Source: a virus (taxonomy: Duplodnaviria; Caudoviricetes). From it: a stretch of 42,481 bases of DNA. The notes below the pieces were generated by a model. That model did not search any database. It was not told the DNA's origin and saw only the letters and a list, made by a program, of their open reading frames with translations. The stretch covers positions 1 through 42,481 of IMG/VR virus record IMGVR_UViG_3300017655_000010. One strand, given 5' to 3'. Of this stretch, positions 1 through 42,481 are shown one piece after another (within the stretch, counting starts at the first letter, position 1; the number at the start of each line of letters is the position of its first letter). Both the position numbers and the translations under genes were made by a program.

Positions 1-65
1 CTGAACCGGCGGCGGCTTTGGCCGCGTAGCGCATCAAGCCTTCCCGGCGCTAAGCCGGGTGGCGC

Positions 66-123
66 TGGTGCGGACGGCGGGTCTCGAACCCGCACTCCCC
101 GAGGGGAAGCAGATTTTAAGTCT
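66..123 (-). pseudogene. 3' half of disrupted host tRNA-Leu(UAA) (anticodon arm to CCA)
   Basis: Minus strand reads AGACTTAAAATCTGC-TTCCCCTCGGGGAGT-GCGGGTTCGAGACCCGC-CGTCCGC-ACCA. The acceptor strand CGTCCGC pairs with GCGGACG at 42390-42396. Confidence 0.93.
114..123. repeat. att core (left junction) TTTTAAGTCT
   Basis: Identical 10-mer at 42359-42368; covers the 7-nt anticodon loop. Confidence 0.93.
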
Positions 124-134
124 CTTGGTGGGTC

Positions 135-219
135 TGCCGGGAGCGGGACTTGAACCCGCAAGCCTTTGATAAGGCGGGGCATTTTAAGTGCCATGTGTCT
201 ACCGTTCCACCATCCCGGC
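135..219 (-). tRNA. Phage-encoded tRNA-Leu(UAA), no encoded CCA
   Basis: GCCGGGA...TCCCGGC-A acceptor stem, D-arm TGGTGGAACGGTAGACAC, anticodon loop CT-TAA-AA (anticodon 186-184), long variable arm GCCTT-ATCA-AAGGC, T-arm GCGGG-TTCAAGT-CCCGC. Confidence 0.9.
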
Positions 220-225
220 ATGAGA

Positions 226-256
226 TGTGACAGGCCCCGTGTCACACGTTGTCACG
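226..256. repeat. TGTGAC/GTCACA motifs, putative integrase arm or accessory-protein sites (left)
   Basis: TGTGAC 226, GTCACA 241, GTCACG 251; the same hexamer is clustered at 42137-42280. Confidence 0.55.
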
Positions 257-315
257 GGGCCTTGGTAGGAAGTCGCAAGAGATTTACGGGGTAGTTGAGG
301 TGCAGGCAACTGCAC

Positions 316-1347
316 CTAATCGGCTGCCCCCATGTTCAGCGCGTCCGCCGCTCCCCGCAGATTGTGCGGCGCGAGGTGGGCGTAGCGCATCGTCATCTGC
401 ACCGTCTGGTGGCCCAGCCACTCCTTGACCACCGGCAGGGCCACGCCCCGCTGCACGAGGCGGCTCGCGCATGTGTGGCGGCAGATGTATGGGACGAAGT
501 TAGGGTCGCCCATGAGGCCCATGTGCGCCCGCGCCCGGTCCCAGGCAGCCCGCAGCCACCAGTTGTCGTAGGGGAACAGAGGCGCCCCAGGTGCAGTAGA
601 CTGCACTCGTCGCGACACGATCTCCTTCACCCGCTTGGTCATGTAGACCGTGCGGGGCTTGTCGGTCTTGGTCTGCCAGACCGTGATGGTCCCCTCGCGG
701 AGGTTCACGTCGGCCTTCTTCAACCCGTAAAGCTCGGAGTTGCGGAGGCCCGTGTCGATCAGACATTCGACCACCTCGGCGGCGTCGTCCTTGCCCCACT
801 GGCGGAACAGCGCCAGGAGGACAGTCTCCTCCTCGCCGGTCAGCCACCGGATGCGGCCCACGGGCACCTTCTCGCGCTCGATGCGGGGCATCTCCAGGTT
901 GCCTCCTCGGGCCTTCGCGAAGCGCAGCACCTTGGACAGCATCGCCAGCCGCCCGTTGATCGTGGAGCTGGCCTTACCCTCGGAGCGGAGGCGCTCGACG
1001 TAGCCGTCCAGGAACCCGCTGTCGATGTGGTGCAGGGGCATGTCGTCCCCCACGTCCGCACGAACGCGGGCCATGAGCTGCCACGTTTTCAGCTCCCACT
1101 TGGTCCCCTTGTAGTACCGCTGGAAGGCGCGGTCGCAGGCGTCCCCGAACGTCGCCGGGGCGTCTCCTCCGGGTTTGCGCCCAGGCGTGGGACCGTTGGG
1201 CGATGAAAAAGCCCGCTCCTTGGCGGGCGCCTTCATCTCCTGTTCCCAGGCTTTCGCCGCTTCCTCCGAGGTGAAGTCGCGACGTTTGCGCTTGCCGTTC
1301 ACGAACACGTCGGCCTGCCACGAGGCCCCGCGTTGACGGATCGCCAT
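316..1347 (-). CDS. int: Tyrosine recombinase / phage integrase
   Basis: N-terminal arm-binding-like region, TGLRNSEL (Arg), TKT (Lys), YICRHTCASRL, WLGH...TMRYAHL (His, Tyr); lies next to att. Confidence 0.95.
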   Translation of the reverse strand: MAIRQRGASWQADVFVNGKRKRRDFTSEEAAKAWEQEMKAPAKERAFSSPNGPTPGRKPGGDAPATFGDACDRAFQRYYKGTKWELKTWQLMARVRADVGDDMPLHHIDSGFLDGYVERLRSEGKASSTINGRLAMLSKVLRFAKARGGNLEMPRIEREKVPVGRIRWLTGEEETVLLALFRQWGKDDAAEVVECLIDTGLRNSELYGLKKADVNLREGTITVWQTKTDKPRTVYMTKRVKEIVSRRVQSTAPGAPLFPYDNWWLRAAWDRARAHMGLMGDPNFVPYICRHTCASRLVQRGVALPVVKEWLGHQTVQMTMRYAHLAPHNLRGAADALNMGAAD

Positions 1348-1689
1348 TTACCCCTCCACGAGGTGAACCAACGAGTTGACGAAGCGGCGCCCTTTCGCCG
1401 TCAGGAAGGCGCACCTCTCGCGGGCGTCCACCTGACCGGGCCGAACCTCGATCAGCTCGTAGCCGGGCTTGCCCACCGGCCAGCCCTTGTCGGATAGCTT
1501 TGCGAACGCCCGCTCGGCAGAGCTTTTGCCCATGCCCAGGGTGGCGGCCACCTTCTGCTGTGTGATGCCCTCCTCCCGTGCGATCAGGAGGAGAGCGGCG
1601 GCATGTTGAACAGGAAGCTCTTGGTCGAGCTTACGCAGCTCCTCGACGAACAGGAACGCCCTCGTCAGAGGGTTTCGGGTGGTCGGCAT
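1348..1689 (-). CDS. MarR-type winged-helix regulator, candidate prophage repressor
   Basis: EGITQQKVAATLGMGKSSAERAFAKL helix-turn-helix and DARERCAFLTAKG wing motif; abuts the integrase. Confidence 0.85.
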   Translation of the reverse strand: MPTTRNPLTRAFLFVEELRKLDQELPVQHAAALLLIAREEGITQQKVAATLGMGKSSAERAFAKLSDKGWPVGKPGYELIEVRPGQVDARERCAFLTAKGRRFVNSLVHLVEG

Positions 1690-1900
1690 TGGTGCCCCTT
1701 GGGTTACGTAGCAGCCCCGCCCCGATAAGGTCGATCACCTCCGCTCCACAAGTGCAGTCTGACTGCACCGGAGCCCAAGACGCGATCACAGTCCAGCCAA
1801 GGAGGTTCACCTCCACGGAGCCGGGCTCACGGATGATTGCGAATTTCGGGTCGTTTGGGTAGCCACGGTTAAGGTACAGGTCCAGGCCGCAAATATTCAT
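1631..1900 (-). CDS. Hypothetical protein (overlaps MarR start)
   Basis: 89-aa ORF with AGGA upstream of the ATG; no recognisable family. Confidence 0.35.
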   Translation of the reverse strand: MNICGLDLYLNRGYPNDPKFAIIREPGSVEVNLLGWTVIASWAPVQSDCTCGAEVIDLIGAGLLRNPRGTNADHPKPSDEGVPVRRGAA

Positions 1901-1991
1901 GTCACGTCATCCTGACGGTAAGCACTACCCGTTGGTCACGGTTTGGTAGCTATACGTTCTATTTCTTAACGGCCTCTTGACGGTGCGTGTT

Positions 1992-2087
1992 CTACGCCTT
2001 GCCCAGGTATGCAAAAAGCAGCCACAGGTAGGCGCCGAAACCAACGACGCCCACCACCGTCTCCACAATCCAACGACGCCAGCTCAC
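1992..2087 (-). CDS. Small membrane peptide (31 aa)
   Basis: GTG start overlaps the upstream TGA (GTGA); reads VSWRRWIVETVVGVVGFGAYLWLLFAYLGKA. Confidence 0.5.
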   Translation of the reverse strand: MSWRRWIVETVVGVVGFGAYLWLLFAYLGKA

Positions 2088-2350
2088 GCCGACTTCCGCA
2101 GGCGGTTGAGCGGCTCGTGCTGGCACAGCTCCGAGACAAGCCCGTCGTAGAGCGTGCGGCGCCCATAGATCGGATCACCGTGTGGCGAGGTCGTGATCTC
2201 CACGAAGTCCTGCTCGTCCTTCCGATACAGCCTGACGCTCACGCGCCCGTCGTAGGACATCACCTCGGCCACCAAGCCAGACTTCTTGGAGCCGCAGCGG
2301 GACGCGACGGTGCCGCTACGGCCCCGGATGTCCCCATAGAAATGCGCCAT
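2084..2350 (-). CDS. Hypothetical early protein
   Basis: 88-aa ORF with AAGGG RBS; co-oriented with the early operon. Confidence 0.75.
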   Translation of the reverse strand: MAHFYGDIRGRSGTVASRCGSKKSGLVAEVMSYDGRVSVRLYRKDEQDFVEITTSPHGDPIYGRRTLYDGLVSELCQHEPLNRLRKSA

Positions 2351-2409
2351 TCGCTACACCCTTTCGCATGTGTTAGCGGCCCCTCCCAGAGGTGGGAGGA
2401 GGCGGACGT

Positions 2410-2480
2410 ACCGCGACCGCAGGTGCAGTCGGCTGCACCTTTGGTTTCGGCCCCTCGTCAGGGGGCCATCGTCAGGCGGC
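2410..2480 (-). ncRNA. Hammerhead ribozyme HHR-1 (type I; extra U after A9)
   Basis: GCCGC-CUGACGA-U-GGCCCC(CUGACGA)GGGGCC-GAAA-CC..AGGUGCAG-CCGA-CUGCACCU..GG-UC/GCGGU; predicted cut between 2415 and 2414. Confidence 0.8.
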
Positions 2481-2481
2481 G

Positions 2482-3294
2482 TTACGAGATCGGGTCAGTG
2501 ATGACCGGCGTTCCGTCCTTGCGGAACATGAAGTTACCCATGTGCATGTCGGGCCACGCGGAGTGCCAGGGCACAGTCTCCGCCGTGCGGTTCTCGGGAG
2601 GCTCCGCATGGATGCGCTTGCGGATGTCCCGCACAAGGCTGGTCAGCTCCGGGAACATGATGACCTCGTGGTACTCCTCGTAGCGTTCGGCCTCGAAGTT
2701 GTACCGCTGCGACCACCCCTCGATGGCCTGCTCCGTCAGGGTCGCAAGCATACGCTCGCGCGTCCCACGCAGCTCCGCCTTCCACTGGTAGACGCAAGCC
2801 TCCAGGCGCTCCATCAGGGCCGCGCAACGCCCCGTGTCGTCCACGAGGAGCATCTTGATGCGCGGGACGTGCGGCCCCGTGTAGGTGCCAGACACCACGG
2901 CATGAGCCCAGATTTTATACTTGTCGTCAGACTTGGCGGACACCTTCCACACCAGGTTTCCCTTGCCCCAGGCAACCCCGAAGGCGCCATCCCCCAGCCG
3001 CTTCCAGCCCTTGGCGCGAAGGCGCCGCGTCAGGGCGTCCATGTCGGCCACCCGCACGACGCGCTCACCGTCGCACCACGCATCTCCAGCGCGGCACAGC
3101 CGCTCCTCCCGGCTCAGGGTGGAGGGCGTGACGCCAGAGTTACGTGTGCGGGGCGTGGTCGGTTCGATTGCCACCGCGCCAGCCGCGCGTACCGCGTCCC
3201 CGAACTCCCGAGGGGCGGCGTTCTCCTTCCGCACCAGGGCCGGGTCGATGCCCGGAAGCTGTGCCAGCGCCAGGAACGGATTAACACCCATCAT
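2482..3294 (-). CDS. T7 gp0.7-like Ser/Thr protein kinase
   Basis: LGDGAFG glycine loop, VWKV lysine, DMHMGNFMF catalytic loop and PVITDPIS, closely resembling the T7 gp0.7 kinase domain. Confidence 0.85.
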   Translation of the reverse strand: MMGVNPFLALAQLPGIDPALVRKENAAPREFGDAVRAAGAVAIEPTTPRTRNSGVTPSTLSREERLCRAGDAWCDGERVVRVADMDALTRRLRAKGWKRLGDGAFGVAWGKGNLVWKVSAKSDDKYKIWAHAVVSGTYTGPHVPRIKMLLVDDTGRCAALMERLEACVYQWKAELRGTRERMLATLTEQAIEGWSQRYNFEAERYEEYHEVIMFPELTSLVRDIRKRIHAEPPENRTAETVPWHSAWPDMHMGNFMFRKDGTPVITDPIS

Positions 3295-3356
3295 TCTACA
3301 CCTCTATCGCGTGCGTTTGCGGCGCTCCCACTCATGGGACCGCACGGGCGTTTTGA

Positions 3357-3420
3357 TCCCGCGACCATCGGTGCAGCGGACTGCACCTAGGTTTCGCCCT
3401 TACGGGCTCGTCAGGCGGAA
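3357..3420 (-). ncRNA. Hammerhead ribozyme HHR-2 (type I, canonical core)
   Basis: UUCCGC-CUGACGA-GCCC(GUAA)GGGC-GAAA-CC-UA-GGUGCAG(UCCG)CUGCACC-GAU-GG-UC/GCGGGA; predicted cut between 3363 and 3362. Confidence 0.9.
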
Positions 3421-3662
3421 AGAGTGCGGAGGCGGTAGCGCAGGGCGTCCACCTCCCGCTGCGCCCGCTCCCGGACGTGGGAGGGAAAGTTGAAACGCTT
3501 GGCCTCCGCGAGGCGGTCCACCCACAAGGCCAGCTTGGCGCTCACGCGGAGGGCCTCGCGGCGGGCTTGAGGCACCCCTAGCGGGCGGGCCTTGATGTCC
3601 CCGCCCACGTCAGTAAGGGCGCGGAACAAGTCCATCGCCCCCTTGAACTTCTTCCGGCTCAT
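3411..3662 (-). CDS. Hypothetical early protein (83 aa, start MSRKK)
   Basis: ATG overlaps the upstream stop (ATGA) and follows a GAGG RBS. Confidence 0.65.
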   Translation of the reverse strand: MSRKKFKGAMDLFRALTDVGGDIKARPLGVPQARREALRVSAKLALWVDRLAEAKRFNFPSHVRERAQREVDALRYRLRTLSA

Positions 3663-3874
3663 GCTGCCAGCCTCGCCTCGATGTCGGAGAGAACCCGGAA
3701 GGCGGCGCGGAAGGCGGCGTCTCCGGTGCAGTAGGTCGCGTCGCTCCACTCGGCCAGGATGCCGGGAGCCATCCACAGCCATCCCCGCCGGTTGCGGCAG
3801 AAGGCGACCGTGACGGTTCCGTAGTTGGAGTGTCGGTTGTCGCGTCCGATCAGGTCGTAGGGCTCGCGAACCAT
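3659..3874 (-). CDS. Hypothetical early protein (start MVREP)
   Basis: GAGGAGG RBS; translationally coupled to neighbours. Confidence 0.65.
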   Translation of the reverse strand: MVREPYDLIGRDNRHSNYGTVTVAFCRNRRGWLWMAPGILAEWSDATYCTGDAAFRAAFRVLSDIEARLAA

Positions 3875-3875
3875 G

Positions 3876-4133
3876 TCAGCCCTCCTCGATCTGCGCGGCG
3901 ATGACATGCTGCTTGGCGATGTAGATTGGCGTGCGGCAGCGGTCGTAGACCCACATGCCGTTGACCCTCTCGCCCAGAAGCTCGCCCATAATCAGGTCGC
4001 CCCTCGGCTGCCAGACAGCAACGTCGAGAACGCGCCCGCTCGTCAGTGTCAGGATCAGCGAGAAGCCCTCGCCGTCCTTGTGAGTGACTTCCTCGGCGTG
4101 GCGGATGGCCGCGCTGACGACATCGTGGCTCAT
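3876..4133 (-). CDS. Hypothetical early protein
   Basis: 85 aa, GGAGG RBS, tightly packed. Confidence 0.7.
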   Translation of the reverse strand: MSHDVVSAAIRHAEEVTHKDGEGFSLILTLTSGRVLDVAVWQPRGDLIMGELLGERVNGMWVYDRCRTPIYIAKQHVIAAQIEEG

Positions 4134-4136
4134 CTG

Positions 4137-4289
4137 TCAGCCCTCCACCGCGAAGCGGCAGCCGCCGACAAGGTTCATCAGCTCGCGGGCGGCCCGGACT
4201 GCGGCTCCGTAGGTGACGCAAGCGGCCAGGGTGGAGCGCAGAGCGCGGCCTCGGCGGTCATACGCAGTGATCCGGTAAAACGTAGGCAT
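4137..4289 (-). CDS. Hypothetical early protein (50 aa, start MPTFY)
   Basis: Preceded by the same AAGCAAGAGGATGCTTCAATG leader as the gene at 4824. Confidence 0.65.
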   Translation of the reverse strand: MPTFYRITAYDRRGRALRSTLAACVTYGAAVRAARELMNLVGGCRFAVEG

Positions 4290-4842
4290 TGAAGCATCCT
4301 CTTGCTTAGTCGCTTGGTGCAGTTGACTGCACCCAAAGGCACGGCCTTTGCCGTACCTGGAGCGATCCCATGGGTGGGACCGTCCAGGCGCGGGAAGGGT
4401 CGCGTTAGATGAAGGAGACGGCCACGGGCGACGAAACCGCCATGACCGCATCTTGCTTGAAGCGGCGCTTCCATTCCGCCGCAACGTTCCGCACCGCGTC
4501 AGCCTGCGCCGCGCTGTGCATCACCTCGACAATCAGCGAAGGCTCGCGGATCGGGCGCCCCGTGGCGCTATCCATCCACCCACCCTCGCCGTGCAGGACC
4601 GTGAAGCCGTCCGGGAAATGCTGCGCCACCACATCGGAAATGAAGCGGTCCACAGCGGCATCCCGGACGGTTGCCTGCCGCTCATCCACCGCGCCATCGG
4701 GGCGCCGCGCGACATGCTGGAGCGGGATGCGACGGCCCATGTAGAGGCGCGTCACCGTGTCCAGCGCGAAGGCGGGCGCCTCACCGATGGCGGGAGAGAC
4801 AAACGTGGCGTTGTCCAAAGGCATTGAAGCATCCTCTTGCTT
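4284..4842. repeat. 24-bp duplicated translation-initiation region (4284-4307 and 4819-4842)
   Basis: AGGCATTGAAGCATCCTCTTGCTT occurs twice and contains RBS plus ATG on the minus strand. Confidence 0.9.
4405..4824 (-). CDS. DUF3574-like protein, candidate SAM lyase (T3 gp0.3-like)
   Basis: FPDGFTVLHGEGGW...REPSLIVEV...WKRRFKQDAV pattern; 139 aa from MPLDN; early position. Confidence 0.65.
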   Translation of the reverse strand: MPLDNATFVSPAIGEAPAFALDTVTRLYMGRRIPLQHVARRPDGAVDERQATVRDAAVDRFISDVVAQHFPDGFTVLHGEGGWMDSATGRPIREPSLIVEVMHSAAQADAVRNVAAEWKRRFKQDAVMAVSSPVAVSFI

Positions 4843-4846
4843 GGTT

Positions 4847-4900
4847 GCGTTTCGCGCTTGCTCAAGGCGCTCATCAGTCGGCTTAGAGCTACCGAGACGC
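4847..4900 (-). ncRNA. Hammerhead ribozyme HHR-3 (type III)
   Basis: GCG-UC/UCGGU(AGCUCUAA)GCCGA-CUGAUGA-GCGC(CUUGAGCAA)GCGC-GAAA-CGC; predicted cut between 4896 and 4895. Confidence 0.88.
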
Positions 4901-4954
4901 GGGGCGCCGAAGGTGCAGTTGACTGCACCCTCGACACTCCCACCAATGGGACCG

Positions 4955-5731
4955 TTAGGCCAAACCGCAGGCCCGGACGAAAGCGTCGAAGTCCATACCG
5001 AACTTCTGCGCCATCTCCTCCAGGCGAGCCTTGGCCGCATCCCGCTCCCCTTGCGTGGCGCCCTTCTCATACAGGCCCCACACCTTCCGCGCCCTGTTCT
5101 TGGTCGCGCCGTCCACCGGCTTCGCGCCGCCCGGCTGCTCGGCCTTCTGTTCGGCCTTCGCGCCCGCCTTCTGGCCCTTCGCCTTGGCAAGCTCGGCCTC
5201 CAGCGCCCGGATGCGCTCCAGGGCCTCGGCCAGTTGCTCGCGGAGGATTTCCGCCTGAGACTTCTTCTTCGCCTTGGCGCTGGCGCCTTCGCCCTCGCCG
5301 CCTTCGCTGCCATCCTCGCCCTCGCCTTCCGGCGCGGGGTTGGTCGCCTTCTTCCACTCGTTGATGAACGCCAGGGCGCCATCCACCGAGTATTCCTTGC
5401 GACCAAGGAGACGGCCTTGCCCTTCCGCCCACTCCTTGGCGGCCAGGAAGTCATCCCAAGCGGCGGCCAGCTTCATCAGCCGCGCCCGCCACTCCTTGGA
5501 AAACTTAAAGTTGTCGTCGCACCACGCCCCGAAGGCGCCCTTTTGGCCGCTCAGGATTTCCTTAGCGTCCAAGAGGCTTGCACCCACGGAGCGGAAGGCG
5601 TGGAGAGTGTCCAGGCCCGCGCCGCTCGCCTTCGCCAGCCAGACATTCACCTCGGAAACGAGGTAGTCCAGCGCGGCGCCGCTGTTGCTGCCCGTGTTGG
5701 CGTTGGCGTCGGCGGTGTTGCAGTCAGTCAT
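4955..5731 (-). CDS. First early gene: DUF3102-like N-terminal domain, acidic linker/coiled coil, DUF2786-like C-terminus
   Basis: GASLLDAKEIL..GAFGAWCDDNFKFSKEWRARLMKLA pattern; C-terminal GATQGERDAAKARLEEMAQKFG. Confidence 0.65.
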   Translation of the reverse strand: MTDCNTADANANTGSNSGAALDYLVSEVNVWLAKASGAGLDTLHAFRSVGASLLDAKEILSGQKGAFGAWCDDNFKFSKEWRARLMKLAAAWDDFLAAKEWAEGQGRLLGRKEYSVDGALAFINEWKKATNPAPEGEGEDGSEGGEGEGASAKAKKKSQAEILREQLAEALERIRALEAELAKAKGQKAGAKAEQKAEQPGGAKPVDGATKNRARKVWGLYEKGATQGERDAAKARLEEMAQKFGMDFDAFVRACGLA

Positions 5732-5734
5732 TGT

Positions 5735-6027
5735 CTCAAACCCTCTCTAGCGTGGTCTTGCTGCCATGAGCGCCATTGCCCATGCCCGAGCCTTCCCATG
5801 TGTGGGACCGTTCGGGCATGAGCAACAGGCAGGCCCGAAGGCCCGCCCATTGTCATGTGCTAGAGGGTTGCTTAATGCGTGTCTCTGATCCGGCTCCGCA
5901 CCTAAGCGGATCACCTAAGCCGGGCATCCTCCGACTTGCGCTCAGGCCCCTTACTAGGCCCATGCCTCTATCCCGTCCGGGAGGCTTCCGGGTGGCGCCC
6001 GGTAGTGTGGGGCGCCTCGTTGTGTGA
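5735..6027 (-). other. Highly structured ~290-nt early 5' leader
   Basis: Serial hairpins including GGCGGGCC-UUCG-GGCCUGCC, a long stem at 5776-5825 capped by a family-B site, and an AACCCUCUAGC/GCUAGAGAGGGUU stem covering the RBS. Confidence 0.6.
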
Positions 6028-6032
6028 GAGGA

Positions 6033-6061
6033 GATTTAGTCCCACCAATGGGAGAATGCAA
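6033..6061 (-). promoter_or_regulatory. Host sigma70-type early promoter with a family-B operator in its spacer
   Basis: TTGCAT-N17-TAAATC with upstream A-tracts; the spacer contains TCCCATTGGTGGGA. Confidence 0.7.
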
Positions 6062-6245
6062 TAGGTTTTTTGCGTCCCATGACGACTTTTTTCGTGAGCC
6101 TTTGATTTCAACGGTTTAGCGGCCATCAGGGCGCCTCTTGGCGTGTCACATGGCAGCCTGATGCGCCCGCATATGGGAGCGATAGGGGCGCCGCATGGGC
6201 TGGCCGATAGGCTGGCCGCGTTGGTGCAGTTGACTGCACCTGTAG

Positions 6246-6268
6246 GGTGGACGGTAGGGCAACCTGAT
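6246..6268 (-). promoter_or_regulatory. Putative phage RNAP promoter (left-end, phiOL-like)
   Basis: ATCAGGTTGCCCTACCGTCC matches the repeated consensus ATTAGGTYGCSCTACC. Confidence 0.55.
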
Positions 6269-6580
6269 GGGAGGCCGGAGGCAAAACAACATCCCATGTC
6301 CAATGAAGGCATGGGACGCCAAGGGCAGCCAGCCTGCACCCATCAGGCCCCCCGATAGGCCCCCTCATGGGCAGATGTGACGGGCAACCGATCCTATATC
6401 TTCTGCGGAGGCCAACATTTTCAAGGGGTTAGCGGCCATCAGGCCCCCCATCAGGCCCCCTTGTGGCGCCACATGAGGCCCCCGCCGCGCCTCCCGGCTG
6501 GCCGACACCCCCACGGGGGGAAACCGCGCCCGGCCCGTTACGGGGTGGGCTCTGACAAATGTGCGCCTAAACGCCAGGTG

Positions 6581-6946
6581 CTACCTGGTAGACACCCGGA
6601 TGGAGGCGGTGCAGTAGGCGTAGGGGCCGGGGACCACCCCAGAGCCACTCTCAATCCGCCTTTCGTCCACCTTCAAGCCCCCCTCACCGCGCCTTTCGGC
6701 CTCCTCCAGGGCGATCCGAAGGGCATCCCGGCGGCATCCCTGCTCAATCCCGCCCAGGTCCACCGAACCACCCGCAGGAATGGCCGTAGAACGCCGCACA
6801 GAGGCCCTAAAGGCCCCGCTGGTGTCATCCCCCAGGGACCACTCCAGGCCGTCTGTACGGTGCTGGTAGGGGCCTCCAGGGAGGGATGGGCCGGTGGAGC
6901 AGGCAGAGAGGAGGATGAGGGGGAGGAGGAGGGGGTGGGGTCGCAT
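6581..6946 (-). CDS. Putative lipoprotein
   Basis: Signal peptide MRPHPLLLPLILLSAC with lipobox; AGGAG RBS. Confidence 0.65.
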   Translation of the reverse strand: MRPHPLLLPLILLSACSTGPSLPGGPYQHRTDGLEWSLGDDTSGAFRASVRRSTAIPAGGSVDLGGIEQGCRRDALRIALEEAERRGEGGLKVDERRIESGSGVVPGPYAYCTASIRVSTR

Positions 6947-7135
6947 GAGGCACTCCTAGGGACACCTTTAGGGCCACCCTAGGGCTATGCCCCCGAAGGA
7001 TGGACACCGAAGGTGGACATCCGTAGGGGGCGTGCCTGCGAGCAACCCTCGGTGGAAGGAGATAGGGGTGGATGTGGTGGTGGTGAACCCCTCACCCACC
7101 CCTCCTACTAACTATAACTGTAACCTAGGGGGAGG

Positions 7136-7155
7136 GTGGGGTAGCGCAACCTAAT
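7136..7155 (-). promoter_or_regulatory. Putative phage RNAP promoter (right-end, phiOR-like)
   Basis: ATTAGGTTGCGCTACCCCAC immediately after terL. Confidence 0.65.
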
Positions 7156-7176
7156 TGGGTGCAGTCAGACTGCACT

Positions 7177-8877
7177 TTAGGTCCGCACCCACATCGGTCC
7201 CACCGAGGTCCGTCCACCGCAGGCTTCGATGAACTTCTCCAGCTCCTTCCGCAGCGCCTCCTCGCGCAGCTCCTCCGCCGCCTTCTCCTGGTCCCGCGCC
7301 ATGCGCTCCGCGAAATAGGCGACAGCGCCAGCCAGCGCGTCCAGGCGGCCATCCTGCTTGAGGGCGCCCTTGTCCCGCGTGATGCGCGTGAGCTGGTGGA
7401 ACAGGCGGTAGGCGTGCTTGGTGTCGGAGCTGTAGCTCTCCACCGAGCGGTAGTCCTTCTCGATGACCCTGGGGTCCACGATCAGGCGATGCTGCGCCAG
7501 GACCGGGGCCAGGGTGTCGATGATCCGCAGCTCCTTCTGCCGCGTGTGCTTCACGCCCTCCACGCCGCACGGGTGCGTCTTGGCGAGGTACGGCTTGAGC
7601 AGCTCGCGGAACATGCCGTCACCGAAGTTGTCCTCCACCAGCACGAGGTTGACGTTGTGCGCCTTGGCGGCGTCCGCGAAGCCCTGGAGGGTGGCCGGTG
7701 CGTAGCCGTGCATGAAGCCGCCCACGTCCCGCAGGAACAGGTTGCCGTTGAGGAAGGACAGGGCCGCGTAGCTGGCCTCGTCGGCGCCGCCGCCCGCCGG
7801 GTCGATGAACATGACGGTGCCCTGGTAGGGCGCCCACTCGCGGGGATCGTCGGAGGTCCGCCACGGGCGATACCACTTGTCCCCCGAGAGGCCGACGTTC
7901 GGGAGGTCCGGGAGGGCCAGCTCGGGCATCGAGCCCCACGTCACCTTGCCGGGCGCCTCGTTGGGCGGGCAGGACATGACGATGAGGTCGGAGGTCTTGA
8001 GCGGGTAGCGGTCCACGTCGGACAGCTTCGGGTCCAGCATGAACTGGAGCGCGAAGCCCGCCTTGCCGTAGGACAGCTCGCGCTTCGCCAAGTCCTCGTC
8101 ATCGAACCGCTTGGGGTCCGTCGAGGCCCCCGCACGGGAACCCTTATCCAGCCCCCGGAGGATCATCGGGGCGAGGTCGTCGCCGTAGCTGCGGGCCTGC
8201 GCCGGGGTGGGGAACCGGGCGGGCCAGATGCGCGTCTCGTAGCCACGCTGCCGCAGGAGGCCGTAGAGGGTAAGCTCCGTCTGCGGGGTGCCCAGGTAGA
8301 CCACGCGACCACCTGGTTTCAGCACGGCGTCGAACTCCTTCACACGCTCCGCGAGCTTGTCCCGCATGGTCTGCGTTTCGGAGTTGTTCGGAACCTCCAC
8401 GTCGTCCGCGATGATGATGTTGGCGCGGGAGCCGGTGAGCTGGCCGAAGATGCCCACCGACTTGACGGACGGCGAGTGGTCCGGGCGGGCCGGGCCGACA
8501 TCGAACGCGAGGTTGGAGTTGCGCTGTTCGGGGCGGGACCGCAGGGGCGCGAGGATCGGCATGTCCTCGATCAGCCGCTTGACGAAGGTGGAGAACTGGT
8601 CGGCGCGGTCCTTCGAGGCGGACACGGCCATGATCTTCTGGTCGGGGTCGCGGAGCAGCTCCCAGGCGGTGAAGGCCGACGTGATGTAGGACTTACCGAC
8701 GCCTCGGAACGCCTGGATCATCTGGCGGTCGGGGCCGTGCTGGAGGTACTCGCAGATGTCGTACTGGACCGGAGTGGGGTCCGGGAGGTTGAGGTGCTTC
8801 CACACGAGAAAGACGAAGTTGCGGAAGTCCTCTAGCGGCCCGAGGCCGGGGGTGGGTTTGCCTTTCGGCTTGGTCAT
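7177..8877 (-). CDS. terL: Terminase large subunit (T7 gp19-like)
   Basis: AFRGVGKS Walker A, TGSRANIIIADDVE Walker B, LGTPQT, IDPAGGGADE nuclease motif. Confidence 0.97.
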   Translation of the reverse strand: MTKPKGKPTPGLGPLEDFRNFVFLVWKHLNLPDPTPVQYDICEYLQHGPDRQMIQAFRGVGKSYITSAFTAWELLRDPDQKIMAVSASKDRADQFSTFVKRLIEDMPILAPLRSRPEQRNSNLAFDVGPARPDHSPSVKSVGIFGQLTGSRANIIIADDVEVPNNSETQTMRDKLAERVKEFDAVLKPGGRVVYLGTPQTELTLYGLLRQRGYETRIWPARFPTPAQARSYGDDLAPMILRGLDKGSRAGASTDPKRFDDEDLAKRELSYGKAGFALQFMLDPKLSDVDRYPLKTSDLIVMSCPPNEAPGKVTWGSMPELALPDLPNVGLSGDKWYRPWRTSDDPREWAPYQGTVMFIDPAGGGADEASYAALSFLNGNLFLRDVGGFMHGYAPATLQGFADAAKAHNVNLVLVEDNFGDGMFRELLKPYLAKTHPCGVEGVKHTRQKELRIIDTLAPVLAQHRLIVDPRVIEKDYRSVESYSSDTKHAYRLFHQLTRITRDKGALKQDGRLDALAGAVAYFAERMARDQEKAAEELREEALRKELEKFIEACGGRTSVGPMWVRT

Positions 8878-8989
8878 GGGGCTCCAACAAAAAGCCCCGC
8901 AGAAGCCCGGAGAGGGCCGCCACGGGGCGAGAGGTAGGGGTGGACCGGCGGGAAGCTGGAGGGGCCTAGGCGGCCACCGGAGGGGCGCC

Positions 8990-9469
8990 CTAGGGCAGGA
9001 TTGCCCGGAGGTCCGCCAGGATCAGCTCGCACTCCTCCAGCGTCATGTCTGACCGCAGCCGGTTGTAGCGGTGGGACACCCAGCGGACGTTGCCGGGGAC
9101 GTAGCCCAGGGCCGCGATGATGCGGTCCAGGGAGGGGCTGTTGTCGGTGAGGACGCCTATGCCCCGCGTCAGGGGGATACCCAGGACCGGACACCGCGCC
9201 GGGATCGGCGGGATGTCGGGACGCCGCAAGGTGCAGGGAAGGCCCTTCCGCTTGGCCCGCTTACGGGCGGCGTCGAGCAGCTCCCCGATGGTGTCCTTGC
9301 GGTAGGGCTTGCGGCGCTCCGCGACGACCAGCGCGTTCTGCTGCCGGTAGGCGGCGCTACGGCGGGCCATACAGTCCCGGCAGTAAGTCGAGCGCCCGCC
9401 CGGACGGCTCTTGTCTTGGCCGAACTTGGCGGGGTCTTGCTCGTTACAGGAGGGACAGGGCGGAGACAT
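8990..9469 (-). CDS. HNH-like endonuclease with zinc-binding Cys pairs
   Basis: CPSC...CRDC, CPVLG, SPSLDRI..GYVPGNVRWVSHRYN. Confidence 0.75.
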   Translation of the reverse strand: MSPPCPSCNEQDPAKFGQDKSRPGGRSTYCRDCMARRSAAYRQQNALVVAERRKPYRKDTIGELLDAARKRAKRKGLPCTLRRPDIPPIPARCPVLGIPLTRGIGVLTDNSPSLDRIIAALGYVPGNVRWVSHRYNRLRSDMTLEECELILADLRAILP

Positions 9470-9510
9470 TTCAGTAGTCTATGCCCTGTTCTTCACCTCG
9501 TCTAGGAGGC

Positions 9511-9741
9511 TTAGTGCGGGTACTCCGTGTCGTCACTCGTGGGGAACGGCACCATCCGCGCTAGGTCGGCGGCGGGCGAGCCCGGCTGCACCACGGCGCT
9601 GATGTCGTTCTCCTTGAGGAAGCGGATGGCGGCCATGAAGTCCGCCGGTGCGGCGGTGCCGCTGCTGATCCGCTTGAGGAGCTGCTTCGCCGTCTCCTCG
9701 TGGAGCTGGGCGAGGATGTCCTGGAGGGCGTCCTTGTCCAT
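9511..9741 (-). CDS. terS: Terminase small subunit (T7 gp18-like)
   Basis: LAQLHEETAKQLLKRISSGTA.PADFMAAIRFLKENDI; start re-set to MDKD. Confidence 0.85.
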   Translation of the reverse strand: MDKDALQDILAQLHEETAKQLLKRISSGTAAPADFMAAIRFLKENDISAVVQPGSPAADLARMVPFPTSDDTEYPH

Positions 9742-9995
9742 CACAGCGGCTCCCCGGTAGGTGCAGTTGACTGCACTTCCGGCTCCGCGACAGCCCACAC
9801 GCCGAGGATGACAGCGGAAAGCTCCGGCCCGGTGCGCTTGAGGCCCGCCGGGATGGGAAGCGCCGCGTCGGTGCGGACGTTGACATAGGCCACCCCGTCC
9901 AAGTCGCGGGGGCCGAGGACGTTAGGCTGACCCTCGATGGCGGCAGCTACCGTCTCCAGGGGGCCATTCCAGAGGTTGTCGAAAGGTTCAGGCAT
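9741..9995 (-). CDS. Hypothetical protein
   Basis: 84 aa, GAGG RBS, coupled to terS. Confidence 0.65.
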   Translation of the reverse strand: MPEPFDNLWNGPLETVAAAIEGQPNVLGPRDLDGVAYVNVRTDAALPIPAGLKRTGPELSAVILGVWAVAEPEVQSTAPTGEPL

Positions 9996-10002
9996 AGGTT
10001 CC

Positions 10003-11268
10003 TCAGTTGGCGGAGATGAGAGACAGCTCGGCGTCCGACATGACGCGCGGGATGAAGTCGATCAGTGCGACGATGCCTGCGGTCGGGCTGACGCTGGTTC
10101 CAGGCCCCATCGGGCGGATCGGATACCGGAGCAACACGTCCAGCGGGAGCACCGCGTCGTTCCGCGAAGCTGCCACCCCGTTCAGGGCGTGTCCGAACCT
10201 GGAGCCACCATAGGTAAGCGCGTAGGTGTTCCAGGAACCGGGCCGGAAGCTGGATAGGGTGGGCGCGTCGTAGCCTGTCCCTCCGTTGGTGCAGCGCGTA
10301 GCCATGGCGATTGCGGAATTGGACGGGACGAACCCTAGGAGGCGGTTCGATGCCGAGCCGTCAGACCACGAGAACACACCCCGGTTGGGGGACTGCGCGG
10401 TGCCCGCCAAGTCCATCCAGCGGATCAGGAACGTCCCTTTGCGTCCGCCTCCGGGAAGCGTCCGGGGGTCGAGGCTAAGAGCGTCCACCGCTCGGGCCGT
10501 CGCGCCAAACGTTCCGGGGGCTGTCAGGATTGGCGTGGACGGGAAGGACGCCTGCTCGGCCTGTACGGCGCAAACGTCGAAGATCGTGTCGTAGACACCA
10601 TTCACCGATACCCCGAAGGAAAGGCCGGGCTGGAAGTAGGCGATGGTGCTGTCTGTCCCGAACTGCCGTGTGTGGTCGAAGCGGCGGAGCGTTTCATCAG
10701 GAGCGAACGAGTTGGTCGGACTTTCCCCTGAAACCGCGCCACCGCTGCTGTTGCGGACAATACTGCGGATGCCCCAATTCTCCGCGCCAGCTCCGCGCTT
10801 CTCCACGAGAGCGAGGGACAGGGAGGCCGCCCACCACTGGCCCGGACTGACCGCAATGGAGTTAGCCGTCTCCAGGTTGATGATGACGTTGCCGTTTGCG
10901 GTGGCCGTGCCGTAGAGCCTCACACGCTGTCCACGCTGGCCGATGCGAACCACAGGACCAAGCCACTCCAGAGTGATCCCGTAGTTGGTCTGCGGCTGCC
11001 AGTAGTTGGGGACCGCACCGACCGAGGAGGCGTCCCCGCCGGGGTTGCGGATGTTGTTGGTCCGCTGTTCCTCGATCAGGAAACCCGCAGGCCCACCCGC
11101 CGGGACGTAGTAGGGGCGCGGAGCGTCTGCCGGGAAGCTCAACAGACTTCCGCCCTCTCCGAACGCCCAGGCGGCCGAGGCGCGGCTCCAGGTTGCCAGC
11201 GGGGACAGGGAAGCCCCGGAGAGGAGGGACTGACGTCCCGCCCCTCCCCCGCCGAATAGCGGGAGCAT
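10003..11268 (-). CDS. Putative tail-associated / carbohydrate-binding protein
   Basis: RASAAW...GFLIEEQRTN..., QAEQASFPSTPILT...RAVD pattern seen in phage fibre and lectin-like proteins; beta-rich; lies in the tail module. Confidence 0.6.
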   Translation of the reverse strand: MLPLFGGGGAGRQSLLSGASLSPLATWSRASAAWAFGEGGSLLSFPADAPRPYYVPAGGPAGFLIEEQRTNNIRNPGGDASSVGAVPNYWQPQTNYGITLEWLGPVVRIGQRGQRVRLYGTATANGNVIINLETANSIAVSPGQWWAASLSLALVEKRGAGAENWGIRSIVRNSSGGAVSGESPTNSFAPDETLRRFDHTRQFGTDSTIAYFQPGLSFGVSVNGVYDTIFDVCAVQAEQASFPSTPILTAPGTFGATARAVDALSLDPRTLPGGGRKGTFLIRWMDLAGTAQSPNRGVFSWSDGSASNRLLGFVPSNSAIAMATRCTNGGTGYDAPTLSSFRPGSWNTYALTYGGSRFGHALNGVAASRNDAVLPLDVLLRYPIRPMGPGTSVSPTAGIVALIDFIPRVMSDAELSLISAN

Positions 11269-42309: not shown

Positions 42310-42358
42310 CGCCTGGGTTTTCGGGCTTCCGCCCACAGGTGGGACTAATCCCGCCCGC

Positions 42359-42368
42359 TTTTAAGTCT
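42359..42368. repeat. att core (right junction) TTTTAAGTCT
   Basis: Direct repeat of 114-123. Confidence 0.93.
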
Positions 42369-42396
42369 GCTGCGTCTACCGTTTCGCCACGTCCGC
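42359..42396 (-). pseudogene. 5' half of disrupted host tRNA-Leu(UAA)
   Basis: GCGGACGTGGCGAAACGGTAGACGCAGCAGACTTAAAA followed by non-tRNA phage sequence. Confidence 0.93.
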
Positions 42397-42481
42397 GCCG
42401 AGAGCCTCTCCTGCCACAGCGGCGCGGCGGGCAAAAGGGTCAGCCCGCTTCCGCGACGATCCGGCGGCAGTGATTCAGCGC

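What the first reader, a model, noticed from the sequence alone, without database searches (positions are those of the whole stretch)
2410..4900. Three hammerhead ribozymes punctuate the early polycistronic transcript
Seen: complete sense-strand hammerhead cores (CUGANGA, GAAA, GUC) with all three stems at 2410-2480, 3357-3420 and 4847-4900. Each lies in an intergenic gap just upstream of a gene's RBS: the 88-aa gene, the kinase and the SAM-lyase-like gene. Two of them bracket the kinase exactly. Known: T7 cuts its early mRNA with host RNase III at intergenic hairpins, and hammerheads have been reported in some prophages with unclear roles. Inference: self-processing of the early mRNA into separately controlled 5'-OH pieces, a ribozyme equivalent of the T7 RNase III sites. 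It could also uncouple the host-takeover genes from the downstream marR-int-tRNA unit.
Basis: partly seen in the sequence, partly recalled or inferred. Interest (0 to 1): 0.9.

Follow-up and report, generated by a model that had tools for sequence, protein, structure and literature searches.

The report
Hammerhead ribozymes between prophage early genes
Three complete hammerhead-type RNA motifs sit between early genes of a T7-like prophage and likely cut its long early message into pieces; the same layout was described and tested in 2011 in a closely related prophage, so this is a new example of a known but still unexplained arrangement.

Summary
Observation confirmed. Three canonical hammerheads lie on the sense (minus) strand of the early region of a complete temperate T7-like prophage: one type III (cut 4896|4895) and two type I (3363|3362, 2415|2414). 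They are the only three descriptor hits in the 5.3-Mb genome, and each has a plausible tertiary contact. The arrangement is known. Perreault et al. 2011 showed cleavage of clustered hammerheads in Azorhizobium and Agrobacterium prophage regions and proposed processing into gene-sized mRNAs. Their Azorhizobium primers map to a prophage with 61% TerL identity, and one tested ribozyme occupies the same gap as the window's type III. Such ribozymes occur in 18 of 61 related early regions. The type III is predicted to fold worst. This scan has reported the same arrangement on other DNA at least eight times. A side observation is less familiar: a GTGCAG-N4/5-CTGCAC palindrome, 22 copies in the prophage and none in the host, extends stem III of two ribozymes.

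The parts
4847..4900 (-). HHR3, type III hammerhead; predicted cut 4896|4895; loop I GCUC (4889-4886) can pair with loop II GAGC (4863-4860)
   Evidence: clade model R1 33.2 bits, E about 7e-8; secondary fold 6.0 kcal/mol above the MFE
3356..3420 (-). HHR2, type I hammerhead; predicted cut 3363|3362; GUAA tetraloop on stem II and unpaired U1.7 (3356); core UGA is the stop codon of the upstream ORF
   Evidence: MFE equals the catalytic fold, z -2.79
2405..2480 (-). HHR1, type I hammerhead with one extra U after A9; predicted cut 2415|2414; loop II GACG (2459-2456) can pair with CGUC (2408-2405)
   Evidence: MFE equals the catalytic fold, z -3.43
2423..2438 (.). GTGCAG-N4-CTGCAC palindrome forming the outer stem III of HHR1
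3371..3386 (.). GTGCAG-N4-CTGCAC palindrome forming the outer stem III of HHR2
4913..4928 (.). GTGCAG-N4-CTGCAC palindrome in a hairpin just 5' of HHR3
4938..4951 (-). UCCCA-N4-UGGGA hairpin right after the g258 stop codon; likely 3' cap of the upstream piece
   Evidence: variants with G-U pairs before type III ribozymes in relatives
3326..3339 (-). UCCCA-N4-UGGGA hairpin in the 5' leader of the kinase piece
2384..2397 (-). UCCCA-N4-UGGGA hairpin in the 5' leader of the 88-aa gene
5775..5826 (-). long hairpin (15 bp, internal loop, 5 bp) before the first early gene; candidate RNase III site (inferred)
   Evidence: z -4.81 for 5720-5880
4955..5731 (-). g258, first early gene, DUF3102-like clade marker; homologue AZC_3573 in A. 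caulinodans
4405..4824 (-). DUF3574 gene downstream of HHR3 (weak SAM-lyase resemblance only)
3411..3659 (-). 82-aa ORF whose stop codon is the UGA of the HHR2 core
2482..3294 (-). protein kinase related to T7 gp0.7-type kinases; alone on a predicted 948-nt piece
   Evidence: PHROG 15752, E 1.4e-11; size
2084..2350 (-). 88-aa gene downstream of HHR1
   Evidence: PHROG 5927, unknown function
316..1689 (-). marR-like regulator (1348-1689) and tyrosine integrase (316-1347); context

Best explanation
These are three hammerhead ribozyme motifs between early genes of a temperate T7-like prophage, and they likely cleave the early transcript by themselves, during or soon after transcription, into four structured pieces. 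The predicted pieces are: g258; a 1533-nt five-ORF block starting with DUF3574; the kinase alone (948 nt); and the 88-aa gene with what follows. Each new start is a 5'-OH 64-71 nt before a start codon, with hairpins in its leader. Each new end is a cyclic phosphate behind the ribozyme body (type I) or behind a conserved hairpin (type III). The likely purpose is insulation: each freely swapped early gene gets fixed ends, and so a decay rate and translation level independent of its neighbours, without a host enzyme. Shown here: sequence, stems, position, conservation, covariation in relatives. Shown in print for relatives: cleavage. Inferred: cleavage of these three, in vivo processing, and the purpose.
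For: Canonical cores and stems, the only 3 hits in 5.34 Mb. In 61 related terL-to-int regions (window included), 46 hits are sense-strand and early (337 kb) against 1 in 522 kb upstream of terL and 0 antisense; 18 of 61 loci carry at least one. G10.1-C11.1 and A15.1-U16.1 are invariant in 50 of 50 while other stem pairs vary (the descriptor demands pairing at these places). Ten clade type III ribozymes: 99.4% of cells paired, 10 of 18 pairs with double changes, 0 of 500 shuffles as high, one compensatory change in the loop-loop pairing. Loop-loop complementarity, which was not used for selection, beats partner swaps for types II and III (0 of 2000 each). Perreault's A. caulinodans primers map to L167 (4 of 4 tried), whose TerL is 61% identical; their HH2 follows the g258 homologue as HHR3 does, and those RNAs cleaved in vitro. 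A type III follows g258 in 8 of 15 distinct loci (my count). Gene content between ribozymes varies between phages.
Against: No RNA data and no assay for these three. HHR3's catalytic secondary fold is 6.0 kcal/mol above a rod-like alternative, the largest gap among 50 bare ribozymes (relatives' median 0; z -1.03); the model cannot score the loop-loop contact. In longer context stem I is predicted at only 0.07 for HHR2 (0.9 in a co-transcriptional snapshot) and 0.08 for HHR1. For type I the loop-tail signal is weak (92 of 2000 swaps as high). 43 of 61 related early regions and 4 of 4 cultured temperate T7-like phages (Pasto, ProddE, LUZ100, Lo5R7ANS) have no early-region descriptor hit, so the device is dispensable for this lifestyle. 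The paralogous gap at 4290-4404 shares hairpin, palindrome and RBS but has no ribozyme. No promoter was located, so one continuous early transcript is assumed.
Confidence: 0.7

Rival explanations
1. Cleavage is gated by translation. Type I ribozymes sit on or right behind the upstream stop codon, so a terminating ribosome unfolds the core and cutting happens mainly when the upstream gene is not being translated.
For: The HHR2 core UGA is the upstream stop; the kinase stop ends 1 nt before HHR1. In 8 of 11 type I ribozymes the upstream stop ends within 4 nt before, or inside, the ribozyme (4 use the core UGA), against 5 of 35 for types II and III (my count; heuristic ORF calls; related loci).
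Against: Genome compaction explains it equally well, since a type I body stays on the upstream piece as its 3' end. No regulatory input is evident. Co-transcriptional folding of HHR2 is predicted to be favourable.
Confidence: 0.15
2. The cuts are timers that shorten the life of early messages: the 5'-OH pieces are fed to RNase J, as for glmS, which limits host-takeover genes such as the kinase.
For: The host has an RNase J-like gene (E 1e-116, just under the family cut-off). glmS cleavage is followed by degradation (review passage; the RNase J1 identity is recalled).
Against: The new ends carry conserved hairpins, which look protective. In E. coli 5'-OH ends resist the 5'-end-dependent RNase E route (recalled).
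Confidence: 0.15
3. One or more motifs, HHR3 first, are slow or decayed passengers of a repeated intergenic module that survives mainly because it helps gene swapping.
For: HHR3 folding penalty. A near-repeat of the module without a ribozyme at 4290-4404. A CCGCCTGA remnant after the kinase stop in L124. The clade's first type III, before g258, is missing in the window.
Against: All 13 core positions and all three stems are intact in all three. HHR3's loops keep a 4-bp match in the same register (1.7-1.10) as HHR1 and the type I ribozymes of L008 and L050.
Confidence: 0.1
4. Paired ribozymes excise the kinase message for circularisation or splicing.
For: The 948-nt piece would have a 5'-OH and a cyclic phosphate, the ends that ligate.
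Against: Perreault et al. looked for circular or spliced products and found none. No RtcB was found in the host genome (100% complete). After the cut, the HHR1 5' arm is predicted to re-pair within the upstream piece, which opposes resealing.
Confidence: 0.03

Closest known systems
Clustered hammerhead ribozymes of the Azorhizobium caulinodans ORS571 prophage region (Perreault et al. 2011, PMC3088659, Fig. S1B)
   Same: Same prophage clade (TerL 61%, g258 homologue AZC_3573 46%); same location downstream of terL; a type III ribozyme in the same gap with matching stem III flanks; a type I with the same CCUA...GA(U/C)GGUC stem III; the same dispersed GTGCAG palindrome.
   Different: Order is III-III-I there and III-I-I here; the window lacks the ribozyme before g258; HHR3's loops follow a different pairing register; a kinase gene is bracketed here; the palindrome is built into stem III here.
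[quoted passage not shown] S2, S3)
   Same: Three ribozymes between small genes upstream of marR and integrase; active in vitro and when expressed in E. coli; same proposed processing role.
   Different: Different flanked genes (ardA there). I did not fetch the C58 locus, so its ribozyme types and its T7-like identity were not checked here.
T7 early-mRNA processing by host RNase III (recalled, not read here)
   Same: Cuts between early genes of a T7-like genome give gene-sized messages.
   Different: Host enzyme, long hairpins and 5'-phosphate/3'-OH ends, against protein-free cleavage with 5'-OH/cyclic-phosphate ends. An analogy of outcome, not homology.
Temperate T7-like (Autographiviridae) phages with marR-integrase: Pasto, LUZ100, Lo5R7ANS, ProddE
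   Same: Gene order, RNAP 36-40% and integrase 32-37% identical, tRNA-Leu nearby in three.
   Different: None of these four has an early-region hammerhead by my descriptor.

Membership tests
Hammerhead ribozyme | Core C3 U4 G5 A6 N7 G8 A9, G12 A13 A14 A15, U16 H17 | tested here: met
   All three, GUC triplet; HHR1 has one extra U after A9, also seen in 16 of 50 ribozymes of this set
Hammerhead ribozyme | Three stems closing the core, with paired 10.1-11.1, 1.1-2.1 and 15.1-16.1 | tested here: met
   the catalytic fold is the MFE for HHR1 and HHR2
Hammerhead ribozyme | Catalytic fold is thermodynamically accessible in context | tested here: inconclusive
   HHR3 is 6.0 kcal/mol above a rod; flanks compete for HHR1 and HHR2; pseudoknots are not modelled
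Hammerhead ribozyme | Tertiary contact between stem I and stem II regions | tested here: met
   HHR1 GACG/CGUC and HHR3 GCUC/GAGC, 4 bp each; HHR2 GNRA loop with U1.7 (role of this pair recalled); by sequence only
Hammerhead ribozyme | Site-specific self-cleavage to 5'-OH and 2',3'-cyclic phosphate | not testable with these tools
   Shown for the A. caulinodans counterparts only
Rfam Hammerhead_3 / Hammerhead_1 models | Score at or above the gathering threshold | tested here: not met
   HHR3 31 bits against 48.5; HHR1 and HHR2 not listed at E up to 1. Most relatives also miss: 3 gathering hits where the descriptor finds 12 in the same six loci
Clustered prophage hammerheads (Perreault 2011) | Two or more ribozymes flanking single genes or short gene blocks in a prophage, near an integrase | tested here: met
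Clustered prophage hammerheads (Perreault 2011) | Homology of the element to a tested locus | tested here: met
   Published primers map to L167; shared TerL, g258 and ribozyme position
T7-type RNase III processing site | Long, largely double-stranded hairpin cut by host RNase III | tested here: not met
   The three motifs are three-way junctions; a separate hairpin at 5826-5775 may qualify but was not tested
Temperate T7-like (Autographiviridae) prophage | T7-type RNA polymerase and TerL, one-strand gene order, marR-integrase, matching att cores | tested here: met
   TTTTAAGTC at 114 and 42359 between two halves of a tRNA-like sequence
SAM lyase (gene 4405-4824) | Pfam S-AdoMet_lyase above cut-off or a solved relative | tested here: not met
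   16.9 bits against 28; no PDB match

The most novel reading that the evidence does not exclude
The ribozymes are a ribosome-gated processing switch: type I hammerheads of this phage clade are parked on stop codons, here with the catalytic UGA as the stop itself, so the kinase message is released only when translation of the upstream gene falters. A phage protein bound to the genome-wide GTGCAG-N4-CTGCAC sites, which double as stem III, would further time folding by pausing the polymerase. That would be a natural regulated hammerhead controlling a host-takeover gene.
Probability: 0.12. Interest if true: 0.65.

Novelty: new member of a known kind. Interest (0 to 1): 0.25.

Why it matters
The biological job of bacterial and phage self-cleaving ribozymes is still open (review PMC6765202). 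This window does not solve it but sharpens the test. It ties the 2011 'presumed prophage' clusters to a definite virus group, temperate T7-like phages (no paper held both 'hammerhead' and 'Autographiviridae'; two hits for 'self-cleaving ribozyme' with 'T7-like' and 'phage' were unrelated by their listings). It shows regularities that any function must explain: early region only, sense strand only, a type III first in every mixed array, type I on stop codons. It also points to a cultured lysogen candidate, A. caulinodans ORS571, for mutant tests. As a single finding it is a further example, seen repeatedly in this scan.

Tried and rejected
a hand-written structure string was out of register with alignment A2, so its null result is meaningless; redone on a gap-free alignment (the window's HHR3 and the L168 rows were left out there because their loop lengths differ). 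RNA evidence: no RNA holder listed; DNA contigs laid on the region were identical fragments with no variants. A fourth ribozyme with one core mismatch in 1300-7150: none; clade model R1 found no extra strong hit. Sigma-70 promoter scan: 0 sites in 1-7200. Close relatives of the prophage in 200 related genomes and 400 genomes of the class: not found in those searched. Kinase relatives: none beyond itself, so bracketing could be tested on L124 only. TCCCA-N4-TGGGA as a DNA operator or phage promoter: disfavoured, because relatives show TTCC/GGGA and TTCC/GGAA variants that keep RNA pairing but break DNA symmetry; an operator role is not excluded. g258 as the binder of the GTGCAG palindrome: not supported, since 8 of 19 distinct loci with a g258 match lack it and its model had no structural match. 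A paper search for the palindrome returned only unrelated primer matches in the 12 of 49 listed; a search on 5'-OH stability returned nothing. L169 is the window's own record and was dropped; L179, L180, L181, L183 and L185 duplicate L168, L167, L006, L008 and L175; L171 and L172 look like the same phage.
Full report
Context. The window is a complete temperate T7-like prophage. All phage genes lie on the minus strand: integrase 316-1347, marR-like regulator 1348-1689, small early genes up to 5731, terminase 7177-8877, then structural and replication genes and the RNA polymerase at the right end. A shared core TTTTAAGTC at 114 and 42359 lies between two halves of a tRNA-like sequence, and an intact tRNA-Leu sits at 134-220. 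The closest cultured phages by RNA polymerase are Pasto, LUZ100 and kin, 36-40% identical. The finding lies in the early region, between terminase and marR in prophage order.

Observation. A descriptor for the hammerhead core and three stems found exactly three sites in the window, all sense: type III with cut 4896|4895, type I with cut 3363|3362, and type I with cut 2415|2414. One hundred shuffles gave 0.01 cores on average, and the rest of the 5.34-Mb genome gave none. Rfam lists only the type III, below its gathering score; this is usual for this set, as six related loci gave 3 gathering hits where the descriptor found 12. The cuts lie 71, 68 and 64 nt before the start codons of the DUF3574 gene, the kinase and the 88-aa gene. 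Predicted pieces are 1533 nt (five ORFs) and 948 nt (kinase alone). HHR2's core UGA is the stop codon of the 82-aa ORF, and the kinase stop ends one base before HHR1.

Signs of activity. Each motif has a candidate tertiary contact: HHR1 loop II GACG with CGUC at 1.7-1.10; HHR3 loop I GCUC (also 1.7-1.10) with loop II GAGC; HHR2 a GUAA tetraloop with an unpaired U1.7 (the role of the GNRA-U1.7 pair is recalled). Bare HHR1 and HHR2 fold into the catalytic structure (z -3.43 and -2.79). Against: HHR3's catalytic secondary fold is 6.0 kcal/mol above a rod in which the same loop bases pair in nested fashion, the largest gap of 50, though the energy model cannot credit the loop-loop contact. With flanks, stem I is predicted at 0.08 for HHR1 and 0.07 for HHR2; HHR2 reaches 0.9 when the transcript ends just after the ribozyme. 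HHR2 may therefore have to cut soon after synthesis, after which a hairpin in its 3' tail takes over stem I.

Relatives. Of 168 loci plus the window, 61 span terL to integrase. They hold 46 sense-strand hits in 337 kb of early region, 1 hit in 522 kb upstream of terL and none antisense; 18 of 61 have at least one, up to six. The named positives are all Alphaproteobacteria by record title, but several alphaproteobacterial loci and the four cultured phages checked have none. In all 8 mixed arrays containing a type III it comes first, and again in six further mixed arrays of the window's own clade. Loci are related, so these counts are not independent. Loop-loop complementarity exceeds partner swaps for types II (n 23) and III (n 13), 0 of 2000 each, and only weakly for type I (n 12), 92 of 2000. 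Ten clade type III ribozymes show 10 of 18 pairs with changes on both sides; they were chosen by a descriptor that demands the three stems, so only the pseudoknot and the variety of pair types are free of that bias. Genes between ribozymes differ from phage to phage. The only kinase homologue, in L124, has no intact ribozyme beside it, only a CCGCCTGA remnant after its stop.

What is known. Perreault et al. [quoted passage not shown] The A. caulinodans TerL is 61% identical to the window's; its locus L167 carries three ribozymes (III, III, I), and four of four published primers tried map there. Their HH2 directly follows the homologue of g258, as HHR3 does here. A 2019 review (PMC6765202, passages) repeats the processing idea and calls the purpose unresolved. 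The LUZ100 paper (PMC10134795, passages) shows marR and integrase co-transcribed from their own promoter and does not mention ribozymes. T7 RNase III processing is recalled, not read. Eight earlier notes of this scan describe the same kind of arrangement on other DNA; they are not used as support.

Mechanism. The best reading is constitutive self-segmentation of the early transcript into capped pieces that insulate interchangeable early genes (confidence 0.7 for cleavage and segmentation; the purpose is inferred). Type III leaves its body as a 5' leader on the downstream piece, while a conserved hairpin closes the upstream piece (the end-cap reading is taken from scan note e1-3260898 and checked on these loci by pattern only). 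Type I leaves its body as the 3' end of the upstream piece. Rivals are ribosome gating, timed decay through RNase J (gene present), partial decay of the motifs, and circularisation (no RtcB found).

Side observation. GTGCAG-N4/5-CTGCAC occurs 22 times along the prophage, 10 inside and 12 outside listed ORFs, and never in the other 5.29 Mb. It or a GTCTAG variant recurs in 11 of 19 distinct loci with a g258 match. It lies inside 3 and beside 5 of 40 clade ribozymes, so its link to the ribozymes is loose. It looks like the site of a dimeric DNA-binding protein; the binder was not identified.

Verdict. Real, likely functional, already described in the same prophage clade: a new member of a known kind, interest 0.25.

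Noticed in passing
window 300-39460 (22 sites, e.g. 300, 591, 1752, 6224, 7159, 14238, 26626, 39445); L008, L167, L172, L175, L182, L188; variant GTCTAG in L168: A 16-17 bp palindrome GTGCAG-N4/5-CTGCAC (N3 in relatives) is dispersed about every 2 kb over the whole prophage, in and between genes, with 0 copies in the remaining 5.29 Mb of the host. It marks one clade of temperate T7-like phages and suggests a genome-coating DNA-binding protein. No matching paper or scan note was found. Possibly more novel than the ribozymes.
   Followed up: partly
window 2384, 3326, 4366, 4938, 5794, 6040, 29056; one-mismatch copy at 42331: TCCCA-N4-TGGGA occurs 7 times, six in the early region, and never in the host. 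Most copies top an RNA hairpin at a gene boundary; the copy at 42331 lies upstream of the RNA polymerase gene, where MarR sites are proposed for this phage group.
   Followed up: partly
window 5732-5880 (-): Where relatives have their first type III ribozyme with the RBS in stem III, the window has a multi-hairpin structure (z -4.81) whose outer stem also pairs with the g258 RBS and whose inner 15+5-bp hairpin resembles an RNase III substrate.
   Followed up: partly
window 4287-4310 and 4822-4845: An identical RBS-start cassette (23 nt) precedes two different early genes, consistent with gene swapping at repeated intergenic modules.
   Followed up: no
window 62-220 and 42359-42400: The prophage appears to be inserted in the anticodon loop of a host tRNA-Leu(TAA) gene and carries a full replacement tRNA-Leu(TAA) just inside its left end.
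   Followed up: partly
window 2461-2455 (-); L175 11578-12360; L188 9296-9800: Loop II of HHR1 holds a second copy of the core heptamer CUGACGA; similar (CU)GACGA loops occur in several clade ribozymes.
   Followed up: no
L050 12931-16250; L175 9782-13000: Two related prophages carry six hammerheads each in about 3.3 kb of early region, mixing all three types.
   Followed up: no
L005 (Lo5R7ANS) 8855-10050: This cultured temperate T7-like phage is annotated with two tRNA-splicing-ligase genes beside its tRNA but shows no early hammerhead by my descriptor.
   Followed up: no
window 4955-5731: g258 family (54 clusters; DUF3102-like N-terminal part, coiled coil, small C-terminal helical domain) has a confident model but no structural match; function unexplained.
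   Followed up: partly
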